Positions 45,001 through 48,000 of a stretch of DNA of 64,000 nt are shown here, in pieces. Made by a program: the position numbers. Numbering within the stretch: position 1 is the first letter of the stretch; each line of letters begins with the position of its first letter. The DNA lies in NCBI RefSeq assembly GCF_050920415.1, contig NZ_CP169309.1, one strand, 5' to 3'. This DNA is from Escherichia coli (GTDB lineage Bacteria > Pseudomonadota > Gammaproteobacteria > Enterobacterales > Enterobacteriaceae).

Positions 45001-48000
45001 ATTTTCTGGCGACAGCAAAGGTGCTGAAATTTCCGGAAGTGCAGATGCATGAAATCCTGAGTGACTTTGCCAGAATGATTCCGGCAGCACTGGATAACGT
45101 GAAGACTTCATTACCGACAGATTTTCCGGAGAACGTGGTGACGGCAGTTGAAACCAATGTGTTGAGGTTGCACCGTCGCTTAAGCTGAGAATACGGTATT
45201 AAGTAAGATATGGGGTTTGGCCGTTGTTAATGAGCAGGACAATCATGACCGCCAACGACTGGATTCTCCCTTGGTTTATGTTGGTGCGCATAATGTATAT
45301 TATGTTAAATAGCCTATGATGGTAAACAACTTCATATCTCTCCATTGCCTCTCACGAAAGGAACTGGACACACTGATCGAGCACGAATTACAACTGATGC
45401 TGGCTGAAGGCTTTGACAAGTCCCCTATTTCCGCCAAGGCTCTGCATATTCGGCTCAAGGCAAAAGGTATCGTTAACGGTGGTTTAAGTACGCTGAGCAG
45501 CCTTGAGCGAAAACGCCTAATTGCTGCCTATGTTGATCAGCAACTTGGCCCGTTGAATCTACGCCCAAAAGAAAAACAGCAATACGTCAACCGCAAAACC
45601 CGTCAGGCCTTGCTGGCCAGAAACCAGCAGTTGCAGGCGGAAGTCAGTGAACTGCAAGACCAACTGGCGCAGAATACCCTATCGTTGATAGAAATTGTCA
45701 AAGCGGTAAAAATCAATACGGTTATTCCGGTGGAAAGTCTGTTGCCAAACATGTAATTCGGGAATTACACAAGTCGTCATAATGCTGGTTATAATTTTCG
45801 GCAAAGGGCATGGACGATTTCTTTCCGTCATTCTGTATATTGCTTACCTTCCCAAATTTCTCCAACCGTTAGTTGGAGAAATTAGATGAGTCGTAAATCA
45901 TGAATAAACCCCTTGCTCTATTCGAAAAATGAGCATGGCAACTTTCAACACCCCCTCTTCTGAGTCCATTATCTCAGAGGGCGTTTTCCACTGTAATGCT
46001 CTGTTTGGTTCATTGCACCAGTTTAATGCTGCACTTTCGTTACCTTCAAAAAGATCAATAGCCTTTTGAAGAACGTCATTTTTTGTCAGCATGTTTTACA
46101 CCTGAAGACGTTTTGAGTGCTTCGATAAGACTACTTCGCTCTTCCTCTGTCATCCGGGATATGAGCAATGCAAGTTCTGCTGTTGTCTGATCATCACAAA
46201 AAAAGTAGTTCAACGGCACGTTTAACTCTGCCGCCATCCGTCGAATCGTATCAATATCGGGGACATGGCGCCCTTTCTCATAATGATTCATACGACTGCT
46301 AGCCGATGCGGGATCAAAGCCAACATGAAGAATTGATAATTGCCGTGCCGAGCAGAGAAAATGAATTCCGGAAACTTTCTCTTAAGCAAGATAAAAGACA
46401 TATTAAGATAAATGAAAAAATAAAAACACTGATTAGGATTGGTAATAAAAATATTACAATAAGGCAATGAATTTTAAAAAGGATTTGAAGTTTAATACAG
46501 TCATGAAAAAGAGAGGGCAAAGCCGACCCCGCCCTCTCCCTTCATGCACTGATAAGCCTCACTAATAGTGAGTGTTAGCAGCGCGTACCACTGTATGCTA
46601 GACCTGAAAAATATAATCTCAGTCAGTCCCAGATGCAACCTTTAACACTTCAACGCAACAAATTAAACAACGAATAGCCACAAACGTGTAGACAGTGCAC
46701 TGATACGGATAAAAGTAACGCTCCTGAATTGCTCAATCAATGATATATACCCTGTTTTACTGACATATCTGACAGCGGGTGGATTTCCTTCAATTATTGA
46801 TATAACACCATACGCACTACATCTGTCTCCACCAGAATATGAGGTGAAATTGTTGCGCACCGGTTAATCCGGGTGTACTGGTCAAACTGTTTTTACGGTG
46901 CGCCTGTTTTATAGCCTTCAGTTGCGCAATGCGTCGACTTCGCATGGCTTTCCTCATGACTGCCGCTTTACCATTGCGCAATTCGCCGATGTAGTCGGTG
47001 CCCCCCGGAAAATCAAACGGTTCTGGTTGTTCTCTGTACTGCTTCAGGGCGTATAGCCCGATACCTCAGCAGACGGGTTTTCCCCGGAGCGAGGCCTCTG
47101 GGGTTCATAATTAATCGTACAGCCAAAGTACCAAGCGTTCGGCCGGCTGGGCGGCCGGCTGGGCGGCCGGCTGGGCTTGCTGGTCAGTTTGTTCCAACAC
47201 ACATTAAGCATCTCCAGTCCGCTGGGCAGGCGGTCCGGCAGGCTGGTCAGCTGGTTATTACTCACATCAAGCACCTTCAGCCTGACGGGCAGCACCGGCA
47301 GATGGATCAGCTGGTTATTACTCACATTAAGCGTCCTCATATAGCCGGGCAGCTCCGGCAGGCTGCTCATGAGGTTAAAACGCACATCAAGCGTCACCAG
47401 CCCGGCGGGCAGCGCCGGCAGGCCGGACAGCTGATTATTACTCACATCAAGCATCACCAACCCGGCGGGCAGGACCGGCAGGCTGCACAGCCGGTTTCTA
47501 CTCACATCAAGCTTCTCCAGACTGGCGGGCAGCACCGGCAGGCTGCACAGCTGGTTTTTACACACATAAAGATGCTTCAGCCCGGCGGGCAGGACCGGCA
47601 GGCTGTCCAGCAAGTTTCTTCTCACATCAAGCTCCTCCAGCCCGGTGGGCAGCTCCAGCCCGGTGGACCTGAAGAGATTGTTTCCACCCACATTAAGGTG
47701 CTTCAGCCCGGCGGGCAGGACAGGCAGGCTGCACAGCTGGTTTCTACTCACATCAAGCTTCTTCAGCCCGGCGGGCAGGACCGGCAGGCTGTCCAGCAAG
47801 TTTCTTCTCACATAAAGCTCCTCCAGCCCGGTGGGCAGGACCGGCAGGCTGCACAGCTGGTTTCCACTCACATCAAGCTTCTCAAGCCCGGCGGGCAGCT
47901 CCGGCAGGCTGGTCAGCATCAGATTTGCCAGTTCTAGTTCCAGTGCCGAAGCTCTATTGCATGCTCTATTGTATATATATGCCTTCACCCTACTAAGAGC

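What the first reader, a model, noticed from the sequence alone, without database searches (positions are those of the whole stretch)
45316..45898. Unknown 146-aa basic coiled-coil protein next to hipA, with a perfect hairpin downstream
The ORF has no recognisable family and sits convergent to the HTH fragments. Between them is a perfect 9-bp stem hairpin (TTCTCCAAC-CGTTA-GTTGGAGAA, 45858-45880). It could be a small regulator belonging to the islet.
Basis: seen in the sequence. Interest (0 to 1): 0.3.

Follow-up and report, generated by a model that had tools for sequence, protein, structure and literature searches.

The report
Decayed recombination-helper gene beside dif
The "unknown 146-aa protein" is the broken leftover of the fourth gene of a mobile island's own integration machinery; the island sits exactly against the E. 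coli chromosome-dimer resolution site dif, so the ORF is a fossil that marks how the LRR/ankyrin islet arrived, not a regulator.

Summary
The ORF (45316-45756) and the hairpin both exist. The perfect stem is 12 bp, not 9 (45855-45883).

The ORF is not a free-standing regulator. Residues 15-143 are 98% identical to a 144-aa protein that, in other E. coli and in about 40 other gammaproteobacterial species, is always the fourth gene of an operon: integrase, integrase, ~788-aa protein, ~145-aa protein. This is the GInt (ginABCD) architecture.

In the window a ~5.4-kb deletion removed the first three genes. It fused the island's 47-bp left terminus to codon 4 of the fourth gene. A 1-bp deletion also removed the conserved C-terminal tail. 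NCBI's PGAP annotation calls it a pseudogene in all five genomes I checked, and one of them carries an independent nonsense mutation.

The island begins immediately after the 28-bp dif site (45283-45310). A second right-end/left-end junction at 48821-48879 shows that the islet is two decayed elements in tandem: the LRR gene is cargo of the first, the ankyrin gene cargo of the second.

The hairpin belongs to the adjacent HTH/DUF2384 cargo module, not to the recombination core. Its function is unproven.

In passing: this element clade abuts a dif-like site in most species sampled. The GInt papers I could read do not mention this.

The parts
45283..45310 (+). dif, the 28-bp XerC/XerD chromosome-dimer resolution site (GGTGCGCATAA-TGTATA-TTATGTTAAAT). 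Homology with the K-12 backbone ends exactly at 45310.
   Evidence: Exact 28-mer found in window, K-12 and all E. coli loci. The identity of the 28-mer as dif is from my own knowledge; the 11-6-11 organisation is in PMC5357621. Filamentous prophages are integrated at this site in WL297 and other genera.
45311..45359 (+). Left terminus of decayed element 1. It is about 93% identical to the sequence that precedes ginA in E. coli ETEC1738. It supplies the ORF's start codon and its first 14 unrelated codons.
45358..45359 (.). Deletion junction with 2-bp microhomology (AA). It joins the left terminus to codon 4 of the fourth gene; ginA, ginB and ginC (~5.4 kb) are missing.
   Evidence: Three-way alignment of the window with the ETEC1738 left end and the ETEC1738 ginC/ginD junction; BLAST maps.
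45316..45756 (+). The 146-aa ORF: a relic of the ginD-position gene. Residues 15-143 are 98% identical to the intact 144-aa protein WP_001214165.1.
   Evidence: PGAP pseudogene in five genomes.
45743..45744 (+). Site of a 1-bp deletion (GTTGGCC to GTTGCC). It replaces the conserved tail ...A(K/P)H(V/L)I(R)ELHK with PNM-stop.
   Evidence: Strain RMDEC465 lacks this deletion but has Q114stop instead.
45766..45795 (+). Promoter-like site TACACA-18-TATAAT (10 of 12 matches) just after the ORF, pointing into the cargo. A consensus match only.
45855..45883 (.). Perfect 12-bp inverted repeat with a 5-nt loop. It lies 14 nt downstream of the DUF2384 ORF's stop codon and 98 nt after the relic ORF's stop. 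No T-run on either strand.
45898..46092 (-). 64-aa ORF with the Xre/MbcA/ParS C-terminal toxin-binding domain (DUF2384). No toxin gene follows it.
46076..46325 (-). C-terminal part of an Xre-type HTH gene (intact form is 110 aa in strain 214-4), truncated at 46325.
46325..46869 (+). Two fragments 82-88% identical to the 3' part of, and the region downstream of, the 186-aa gene that follows the HTH gene in intact elements.
47044..48651 (-). LRR protein gene (535 aa), cargo of decayed element 1.
48821..48843 (+). Right end of element 1 (TTTATACTCAACATAAGTTAAAT). It is nearly identical to the right end of the intact 18.4-kb element in E. coli strain E2 and ends in an imperfect repeat of the last 11 nt of dif.
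48844..48879 (+). Left terminus of decayed element 2 (CATATTGACTGTTAACTTACTTCATGAACCAAGATG), 89% identical to the terminus that follows dif in E. coli 1517k.
48862..49073 (-). N-terminal fragment and upstream region of a second copy of the Xre-type HTH gene. It shares 63 bp with 46263-46325.
49344..51308 (+). Ankyrin-repeat protein gene (654 aa), cargo of decayed element 2.
51309..52066 (.). Eroded right part of the islet: an HTH fragment, an IS481 fragment and an alpha/beta-hydrolase fragment. Backbone homology (fimA side) resumes at 52067.

Best explanation
The 146-aa ORF is a non-functional remnant of the fourth gene (the ginD position) of a GInt-type mobile genomic island.

Intact elements of this clade carry, at their dif-proximal end, an operon of two tyrosine recombinases, a ~788-aa recombinase-related protein and a ~145-aa helical protein with a coiled coil. 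Published GInt, SE and Tn554 work describes the small protein as an auxiliary recombination factor. These elements insert precisely at the outer edge of the XerD-binding arm of dif. They leave dif intact on the left and an imperfect copy of its last ~11 nt (…ATAAGTTAAAT) at their right end.

In the window lineage:
1. One element was already next to dif.
2. A second element then inserted between dif and the first.
3. Both then decayed.

In the dif-proximal element, a microhomology-mediated deletion removed ginABC. It fused the 47-bp terminal sequence to codon 4 of the fourth gene, and a fortuitous in-frame ATG created the ORF. A later 1-bp deletion removed the conserved C-terminus.

Without its recombinase partners, its native start (which overlaps the ginC stop) and its conserved ends, the protein has no plausible role. 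The islet, with its LRR and ankyrin genes, is immobilised cargo.

The 12-bp hairpin is part of the first cargo module (HTH/DUF2384), sitting 14 nt after that gene's stop. It is most likely an RNA 3'-end or insulating stem-loop between the convergent transcription units.

Shown: homology, synteny, junction sequences, pseudogene status.
Inferred: order of events, loss of function, hairpin role, and that the element's own recombinases rather than XerCD do the insertion.
For: ORF identity and context
- 98% identity of residues 15-143 to the intact fourth-gene product in strain 214-4, which follows integrase (466 aa), integrase (516 aa) and a 788-aa protein directly after hipA/dif.
- The window's 47-bp junction sequence precedes ginA in ETEC1738.
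- The same four-gene order holds in Pectobacterium, Aeromonas and Acinetobacter, in 38 of 39 species loci, and in a remote metagenomic member.

Link to published GInts
- Collinear homology to the E. coli Sakai ECs_3512-3510 module: GinA E=8e-17, GinB E=1e-6, GinC hhalign probability 91.6%.
- The GinC relative of that Sakai module appears in the published GInt list.

Pseudogene status
- Conserved N- and C-termini are missing.
- PGAP pseudogene in 5 of 5 genomes checked.
- Independent lesions: a frameshift in most strains, Q114stop in RMDEC465. Within the relic clade I counted 1 probably synonymous change (third codon position, not translated) against 2 missense, 1 nonsense and 1 frameshift.

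Insertion geometry
- Precise insertion in strain E2: dif | 18,445-bp element ending …ACATAAGTTAAAT | CATGTCTGAGTG, identical to the K-12 empty site.
- The same right end is at window 48821-48843, followed by another element's left terminus.

Hairpin
- Identical in E. coli loci that carry the HTH/DUF2384 module.
- Absent after ginD in other genera and in E. coli 1517k.
Against: - The ORF is still open for 146 codons and its core is nearly identical to functional homologues, so a residual activity (for example DNA binding by the N-terminal helical domain) cannot be excluded from sequence alone.
- The small protein shows no significant sequence similarity to the fourth-gene family of the Sakai-type GInt (hhalign probability 0.2%). 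It could not be compared with the reference P. stutzeri GinD, so 'GinD' is assigned by position, size and predicted architecture only.
- The hairpin lacks a U-tract and the terminator scan found nothing. All copies are identical, so there is no covariation evidence for an RNA role.
- No expression data are available.
Confidence: 0.86

Rival explanations
1. The ORF is a functional, domesticated small DNA-binding or coiled-coil regulator of the islet genes (LRR, ankyrin).
For: - The ORF is intact in the window and in several strains.
- It co-occurs almost perfectly with the LRR and ankyrin genes.
- No terminator is predicted between hipA and the ORF, so read-through from hipBA is possible.
Against: - It has lost the family's invariant N-terminal MRGK and C-terminal tail.
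- There is no Shine-Dalgarno-like sequence before either ATG (read from the sequence). The first ATG is ACG in most related strains.
- Independent nonsense and frameshift lesions occur.
- PGAP annotates it as a pseudogene in 5 of 5 genomes.
- Co-occurrence is explained by linkage in a single rare islet found in 17-18 of 5426 genomes.
Confidence: 0.07
2. The ORF is the missing toxin or partner of the adjacent DUF2384 (Xre/MbcA/ParS-type) antitoxin, and the hairpin is their shared regulatory element.
For: - The DUF2384 ORF has no downstream toxin gene.
- The ORF is the nearest neighbour of that gene.
- The two co-occur in several E. coli element variants.
Against: - The genes are convergent, not co-transcribed.
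- The small protein always follows ginC, with overlapping stop and start, and does so in genera whose elements lack any DUF2384 gene.
- It gives no RES or other toxin-domain hit.
- The HTH/DUF2384 module occurs without it elsewhere, for example behind an IS1.
Confidence: 0.02
3. The islet was inserted by the host XerC/XerD recombinases as an IMEX, the mechanism assumed for the EcloIMEX/EludIMEX elements at dif in Enterobacter. On this view the four-gene operon is not the integration machinery.
For: - The elements abut dif or dif-like sites in most species and a plasmid Xer-type site.
- Filamentous IMEX-type prophages share the site.
- Two loci have dif-like sites with intact arms but a different central 6 bp.
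- The literature calls similar dif-located elements with a 'highly conserved 5' region' Xer-dependent.
Against: - Insertion is outside the 28-bp site, not in the central region where Xer exchanges strands.
- The right end resembles only the XerD arm: 12 of 28 positions mismatch dif, and there is no XerC arm.
- Every element carries two RHRY-type integrases plus a recombinase-related protein at the dif-proximal end.
- All four genes were shown to be essential for recombination in the model GInt (PMC5385486).
Confidence: 0.12
4. The hairpin is a protein-binding palindrome (an operator or recombination accessory site) rather than an RNA structure.
For: - It is a perfect 12-bp inverted repeat with a 5-bp spacer, is A+T-rich and lacks a U-tract.
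- It lies next to genes for HTH proteins.
- A promoter-like site lies 60 bp upstream.
Against: - It lies at the 3' ends of both flanking genes, not in a promoter region of the HTH gene.
- No second copy or half-site was found in the loci.
- It is not present in other variants of the same module.
Confidence: 0.25

Closest known systems
[quoted passage not shown] 2017 (PMC5385486)
   Same: - Four co-oriented genes at the 5' end of the island: two RHRY-type tyrosine recombinases, a large recombinase-related protein usually annotated 'hypothetical', and a small ~130-150-aa helical/coiled-coil protein with no domain hit.
- Variable cargo starts at the stop codon of the fourth gene.
- Site-specific insertion flanked by ~10-11-nt imperfect direct repeats.
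- A, B and C are sequence-homologous and collinear with a Sakai-type GInt module.
   Different: - The small protein has no detectable sequence similarity to the fourth-gene family of the Sakai/Pectobacterium-type GInt.
- GinC is longer: 776-790 aa against 540-736 aa.
- The target is the outer edge of dif, which neither GInt paper I read mentions.
- The window copy is a deletion relic lacking ginABC.
SEs (strand-biased circularizing integrative elements; intA-tfp-intB-srap), Idola et al. 2023 (PMC10214605)
   Same: - A four-gene module with two tyrosine recombinases, a recombinase-fold protein and a small auxiliary protein with a C-terminal coiled coil.
- Non-conjugative.
- Site-specific.
   Different: - Gene order differs: the recombinase-fold gene is second in SEs and third here.
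- There is no sequence similarity to a bona fide Srap/Tfp pair from E. coli 214-4.
Tn554 TnpC
   Same: A small third or fourth protein that stimulates integration by two tyrosine recombinases. The literature reports low similarity between GinD and TnpC (PMC5385486).
   Different: - Tn554 lacks a GinC/Tfp counterpart.
- It is a Firmicutes element.
- Similarity to the protein studied here was not tested (no TnpC sequence was available).
IMEX elements at dif (CTX/VGJ/TLC phages, the gonococcal GGI island, EludIMEX-1 and EcloIMEX of Enterobacter)
   Same: - Located at dif.
- Accumulate in tandem beside dif.
[quoted passage not shown]
   Different: - Classical IMEX elements encode no recombinase and recombine within dif using XerCD.
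- The elements here encode their own tri-partite recombinase set, insert just outside the 28-bp site, and carry only a XerD-arm-like repeat at the right end.
- Whether EcloIMEX elements are members of this clade could not be tested.

Membership tests
GInt (ginABCD islands) | [quoted passage not shown] | tested here: met
   This holds for the intact relatives, not for the window. Pfam Phage_integrase hits the first two genes. Collinear homology to the Sakai ECs_3512/3511/3510 module: E=8e-17, E=1e-6, hhalign probability 91.6%. The Pectobacterium GinC in the published GInt table is annotated as similar to ECs_3510. In the window itself these three genes are deleted.
GInt (ginABCD islands) | A fourth small gene (ginD) directly after ginC, with no known domain and a helical/coiled-coil C-terminus. 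| tested here: met
   Found after ginC in 38 of 39 species loci. No Pfam or NCBIfam family. The AF2 model has a long helix at residues 82-120.
GInt (ginABCD islands) | Sequence homology of the small protein to reference GinD. | tested here: inconclusive
   No significant similarity to the Sakai-type fourth-gene family (hhalign probability 0.2%). The reference P. stutzeri GinD (WP_043942113.1) was not obtainable. The published GInt table is truncated in the held copy.
GInt (ginABCD islands) | Tripartite structure (gin operon, variable cargo, short A+T-rich 3' end) flanked by 10-11-nt imperfect direct repeats at a specific site. | tested here: met
   Strain E2: TTATGTTAAAT | 18,445-bp element …ATAAGTTAAAT | flank identical to the K-12 empty site. 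Cargo differs immediately after ginD between genera.
GInt (ginABCD islands) | Excision as a circle and integration dependent on all four genes. | not testable with these tools
   Needs PCR and genetics on a strain with an intact element.
SE (intA-tfp-intB-srap) | Gene order intA-tfp-intB-srap, and homology to Tfp/Srap. | tested here: not met
   The order here is recombinase-recombinase-large-small. BLASTP and hhalign against the SE of strain 214-4 found nothing.
IMEX (Xer-exploiting elements) | The element is bounded by two dif-like sites (XerC arm, 6-bp centre, XerD arm) and recombines in the central region. | tested here: not met
   There is only one dif-like site per locus. The right end matches only the XerD arm, with 12 of 28 positions mismatching dif. 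The insertion point is outside the 28-mer.
Type II Xre/DUF2384-RES toxin-antitoxin system (for the neighbouring ORF) | An antitoxin with an N-terminal HTH and a C-terminal DUF2384 domain, followed by a RES or other toxin gene. | tested here: not met
   DUF2384 is present: Pfam E=1e-10, and an NCBIfam Xre_ParS_antitoxin hit of 53.8 bits that is below the 90-bit cutoff. But it is a 64-aa ORF separate from the HTH ORF, and no toxin gene lies downstream; the next gene is the convergent relic.
Intrinsic (Rho-independent) terminator (for the hairpin) | A G+C-rich stem followed by a U-run. | tested here: not met
   The scan found 0 terminator-like sites in 45100-46500. The stem has 4 G-C pairs out of 12, and the tails are AGAUGAG (+ strand) and UGGGAAGG (- strand).

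The most novel reading that the evidence does not exclude
The relic marks a distinct clade of GInt-like elements that use their own GinABCD machinery to insert at the outer boundary of the XerD arm of dif, and of plasmid Xer sites. Insertion regenerates an intact dif, and successive elements stack in tandem on its XerD side.

- A dif-like site lies upstream of ginC on the same strand in 27 of 31 informative species loci.
- It directly abuts ginA in about 20 of them.
- These span Enterobacterales, Aeromonas, Shewanella, Vibrio, Acinetobacter, Psychrobacter and Moraxella.

The cargo is often defence- or virulence-like. If so, the carbapenemase-bearing 'Xer-dependent' EcloIMEX/EludIMEX elements of Enterobacter may be members whose mobility has been attributed to the wrong recombinases.

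The adjacency is shown. The mechanism, and the absence of a prior description, are not.
Probability: 0.35. Interest if true: 0.6.

Novelty: new member of a known kind. Interest (0 to 1): 0.38.

Why it matters
For the window:
- It settles the annotation. The ORF is a pseudogene fragment of a mobility gene.
- The HTH 'fragments' are leftovers of two related elements.
- The LRR and ankyrin genes are cargo of two separate, now immobilised, islands stacked beside dif.

More broadly:
- The relic is a convenient marker for a family of tri-recombinase islands that use the most conserved 11 nt next to the chromosome terminus as a landing pad. This would explain why variable, defence-rich DNA accumulates between hipA/dif and the ydeQRST fimbrial genes in E. 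coli.
- It gives a testable alternative to the 'Xer-dependent' label on clinically relevant dif-located elements.

Tried and rejected
Searches on the ORF and its intact homologue that found nothing useful
- Pfam and NCBIfam on the ORF: no family.
- PDB sequence search with profiles of the small and large proteins: nothing below E=0.1.
- Foldseek against PDB with the AF2 model: nothing below E=1.
- The afdb50 fold library was unavailable.

Family assignments tested and rejected
- SE membership: rejected by gene order and by lack of similarity to a bona fide Srap/Tfp pair.
- Toxin partner of the DUF2384 ORF: rejected on orientation and cross-genus context.
- Canonical terminator reading of the hairpin: not supported by the scan.

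Attempts to tie the small protein to published GinD
- The supplementary table of GInt loci is truncated in the held copy.
- A profile-profile comparison with the Sakai-type fourth-gene family was negative.
- A profile search with GinC listed only close relatives among its 120 best hits, and no Pseudomonas member among them.

Attempts to test whether EcloIMEX/EludIMEX belong to this clade
- The original papers are not held.
- None of 20 sampled contexts of two GinD variants found in Enterobacter carried a class A beta-lactamase.
- The Enterobacter sp. locus from the genome scan has different flanks.

Other
- The 63-bp duplication in the HTH fragments first looked like a target duplication. It is better explained as two homologous genes truncated at different points in two tandem elements.
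Full report
**Observation.**
The window is E. coli chromosome. 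Over the 711 bases tested around the finding it is 100% identical to strain MFDS1022581, which differs from the window by an IS2 insertion further along. The local gene order is:
- lsrK
- an ECSE_1600-family autotransporter (37935-43403)
- hipB, then hipA (ending at 45188)
- the ORF (45316-45756, +)
- a 64-aa DUF2384 ORF (45898-46092, -)
- an HTH fragment (46076-46291, -)
- an LRR gene (47044-48651, -)
- another HTH fragment (48862-49041, -)
- an ankyrin gene (49344-51308, +)

The ORF is real, with pI 9.5. The hairpin is real and longer than reported: AATTTCTCCAAC-CGTTA-GTTGGAGAAATT at 45855-45883. Perfect 12-bp stems occur 3 times in the window against 0.03 in shuffles, whereas 9-bp stems are not rare. 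Folding z-scores are -4.9 and -4.3.

**What the ORF is.**
Curated libraries give nothing. In E. coli 214-4, however, the same position after hipA holds four co-oriented genes: integrase (466 aa), integrase (516 aa), a 788-aa hypothetical protein and a 144-aa hypothetical protein. The last is 98% identical to residues 15-143 of the window ORF.

The small protein has about 140 close homologues of 143-148 aa in Pectobacterium, Aeromonas, Klebsiella, Serratia, Acinetobacter and others. All are annotated 'hypothetical'. An exhaustive profile search finds only 102 clusters at 50% identity.

Wherever I looked, it is the fourth gene after two integrases and a 720-790-aa protein:
- Pectobacterium, Aeromonas and Acinetobacter
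- a remote metagenomic member at E=6.6e-5
- 38 of 39 species loci retrieved with a profile of the large protein

This is the architecture that defines GInts: ginABCD, with all four genes essential for excision and integration (PMC5385486). It is not the SE order intA-tfp-intB-srap (PMC10214605).

**How the window copy is damaged.**
The first 14 codons are not homologous to the family. Family members all begin M(R/L)RGK(E/D)LD. Instead, window 45311-45359 matches (92.6% over 54 bp) the non-coding sequence that lies between dif and ginA in E. coli ETEC1738.

The join (…CACGAAA|GGAACTGG) shares 2 bp of microhomology with both parents. A deletion of roughly 5.4 kb therefore removed ginA, ginB, ginC and the first three codons of the fourth gene. 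An ATG in the terminal sequence opens the frame.

Near the 3' end a G is missing (GTTGGCC to GTTGCC, at 45743/45744). This replaces the conserved tail with PNM-stop.

PGAP annotates the remnant as a pseudogene in all five genomes inspected: 'frameshifted' in four and 'internal stop' in one. Strain RMDEC465 retains the G but has Q114stop, and most strains have ACG in place of the first ATG. Among five relic sequences the ORF shows one probably synonymous change (third codon position, not translated) against two missense changes, one nonsense and one frameshift. The numbers are small, but they are the pattern of a gene drifting without constraint.

**Where the island sits.**
Homology with K-12 ends at 45310, the last base of GGTGCGCATAATGTATATTATGTTAAAT (45283-45310). 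I recognise this as E. coli dif. The 11-6-11 organisation of dif is described in PMC5357621.

The clearest case is strain E2, which has a K-12-like background. An 18,445-bp element lies between dif and CATGTCTGAGTGATGCG…, and no target base is lost. The element ends …ACTCAACATAAGTTAAAT, so TTATGTTAAAT (the XerD arm) and ATAAGTTAAAT form an imperfect direct repeat. This matches the 10-11-nt imperfect repeats reported for GInts.

ETEC1738 shows the same geometry with a slightly different flank.

**The islet is two relics.**
Window 48821-48843 (TTTATACTCAACATAAGTTAAAT) is almost identical to the E2 right end. It is followed at 48844-48879 by the left terminus of another variant, the one that follows dif in strain 1517k.

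- Element 1 (45311-48843) contains the relic ORF, the hairpin, the DUF2384 ORF, a truncated HTH gene, fragments of the 186-aa gene, and the LRR gene.
- Element 2 (48844 to about 52066) has lost everything between its terminus and the N-terminal part of its own HTH gene. It retains the ankyrin gene and an eroded right side.

The 63-bp 'duplication' in the HTH fragments is therefore two homologous genes cut at different points.

The LRR and ankyrin genes each occur in 17 of 5426 complete E. coli genomes, essentially the set that carries the relic junction.

**The hairpin.**
It is identical in E. coli loci that carry the HTH/DUF2384 module (214-4, ETEC1738, WL297, MFDS1022581). It is absent downstream of the fourth gene in Pectobacterium, Aeromonas and Acinetobacter, and in E. 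coli 1517k, where the DUF2384-homologous DNA starts 30 bp after the stop. It therefore belongs to the cargo side of the core/cargo boundary.

It lies 14 nt after the DUF2384 stop and 98 nt after the relic's stop. It has no T-run, and the terminator scan finds nothing. With no sequence variation there is no covariation test.

My preferred reading is an RNA 3'-end or insulator stem-loop between convergent units. A protein-binding palindrome is a serious alternative.

**Comparison with known systems.**

*SE.* A bona fide SE core from strain 214-4 (listed in the SE paper's supplement) shows no similarity in either the small or the large protein.

*GInt.* The E. coli Sakai module ECs_3512 to ECs_3509 has the same layout. 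A Pectobacterium GinC in the published GInt table is annotated as similar to ECs_3510. Against that Sakai module:
- the first recombinase matches at E=8e-17
- the second recombinase matches at E=1e-6
- the large protein matches at hhalign probability 91.6% over 386 columns, including THIPRHNINTF aligned with THQLRHLLNTF
- the small proteins are not detectably similar, even profile against profile

Membership of the operon in the GInt kind is therefore supported. The 'GinD' label for the small protein rests on position, size and architecture.

**Wider pattern (beyond the finding).**
- Of 31 species loci with enough upstream DNA, 27 have a dif-like site on the same strand upstream of ginC. In 24 of these it differs by at most 1 mismatch in the 21-nt core.
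- In about 20 loci it ends 124-162 bp before ginA.
- All seven loci taken from Pectobacterium, Aeromonas and Acinetobacter contigs show the same arrangement.
- With one dif per chromosome, chance adjacency is negligible.
- On plasmid p027_SK3a the element follows a plasmid Xer-type site, AGTACATATAA-CAAAGA-TTATGTTAAAT. This points to the XerD arm as the recognised feature.
- Filamentous prophages occupy dif next to these elements in several genera.

Neither GInt paper mentions dif or Xer. No paper in the searchable library contains both 'dif' and 'GInt'.

The EcloIMEX/EludIMEX elements of Enterobacter are 15-39 kb, have a highly conserved 5' region, lie at dif and are called Xer-dependent. They may be the same family. 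I could not obtain their sequences or the original papers, so the novelty of the dif association is uncertain.

**Verdict.**
The finding itself is ordinary: a pseudogene fragment plus a module-associated hairpin. Its value lies in what it reveals about the origin of the islet, and as a pointer to a dif-targeting clade of tri-recombinase islands.

Noticed in passing
window 45283-45310: An exact E. coli dif site lies between hipA and the finding. Everything from 45311 to about 52066 is inserted DNA relative to K-12.
   Followed up: yes
window 48821-48879: Junction of an element right end (…ACATAAGTTAAAT) with another element's left terminus. It shows that two decayed islands lie in tandem beside dif.
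   Followed up: yes
L016-L054 (39 species loci); L007-L013: The integrase-integrase-788aa-145aa operon abuts a dif-like site in most gammaproteobacterial species sampled (Enterobacterales, Aeromonas, Shewanella, Vibrio, Acinetobacter, Psychrobacter, Moraxella). In several Psychrobacter loci about 2.5 kb of extra DNA separates dif from ginA.
   Followed up: partly
L021 (Klebsiella grimontii) 56-83; L034 (Acinetobacter sp. NIPH 2699) 6930-6957: Dif-like sites next to ginA have intact XerC and XerD arms but a different central 6 bp (CATTGT, CAACAT). Acinetobacter NIPH 2699 also has a second operon copy about 19.8 kb downstream (L048). These may be tandem arrays or secondary Xer sites; unexplained.
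   Followed up: no
L006 (E. coli WL297) 377-6939; L007, L010, L012, L077: Filamentous (inovirus-like: Zot, pII/Rep, secretin, RstB) prophages are integrated at dif immediately to the left of these islands in E. coli, Pectobacterium, Aeromonas and Acinetobacter.
   Followed up: partly
L065 (plasmid p027_SK3a, NZ_CP067312.1) 7983-8046; L066 (F-type plasmid p779-2) ~4000-4052: A copy of the element sits after a plasmid Xer-type site next to parM. Many F-type plasmids carry a right-end/left-terminus-like junction beside an ABC-three-component defence system. These are possible vehicles for spread.
   Followed up: partly
window 45898-46291 (- strand): The HTH and DUF2384 parts of what is normally one Xre/ParS-type antitoxin are two ORFs overlapping by 17 nt, and no toxin gene follows. 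The pair, with a divergent 186-aa gene, is conserved next to the recombination operon in several E. coli element variants (L002, L005, L015, L067-L086). It may be a fifth conserved component.
   Followed up: partly
window 47044-48651: The LRR gene has SKT and PSRP peptide repeats and highly repetitive LRR units. It varies in length between strains. In strain 24A16CRGN010 the allele is annotated as a NEL-type E3 ubiquitin ligase, suggesting a truncated IpaH/SspH-like effector.
   Followed up: no
window 46728-46733 versus L001 10544-11874: The otherwise near-identical genome MFDS1022581 carries an IS2 insertion here that the window lacks.
   Followed up: no
window 26921-26954 and 61455-61485: Two other perfect inverted repeats with stems of at least 12 bp (13 bp with an 8-nt loop; 12 bp with a 7-nt loop) elsewhere in the window.
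   Followed up: no
L005 (ETEC1738) 13420-13450: A G+C-rich 11-bp hairpin (TTTCGCCGACA…TGTCGGCGAAA) on a ~48-bp insertion directly after the fourth gene's stop. It is absent from 214-4 and from the window.
   Followed up: no
L059 (E. coli 214-4, NZ_CP025840.1 2535775-2541336): The same strain that has the intact dif-adjacent element also carries a separate SE (intA-tfp-intB-srap) elsewhere in its chromosome.
   Followed up: partly
cargo regions of L007-L009, L055, L077-L086: Cargo of intact elements is rich in defence-like genes: AbiJ, TIR/SEFIR, AAA_15/21 ATPases, ABC-three-component systems, Lit peptidase, reverse transcriptase plus SMC-like ATPase, and very large AAA_16/NACHT-like ATPases.
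   Followed up: no
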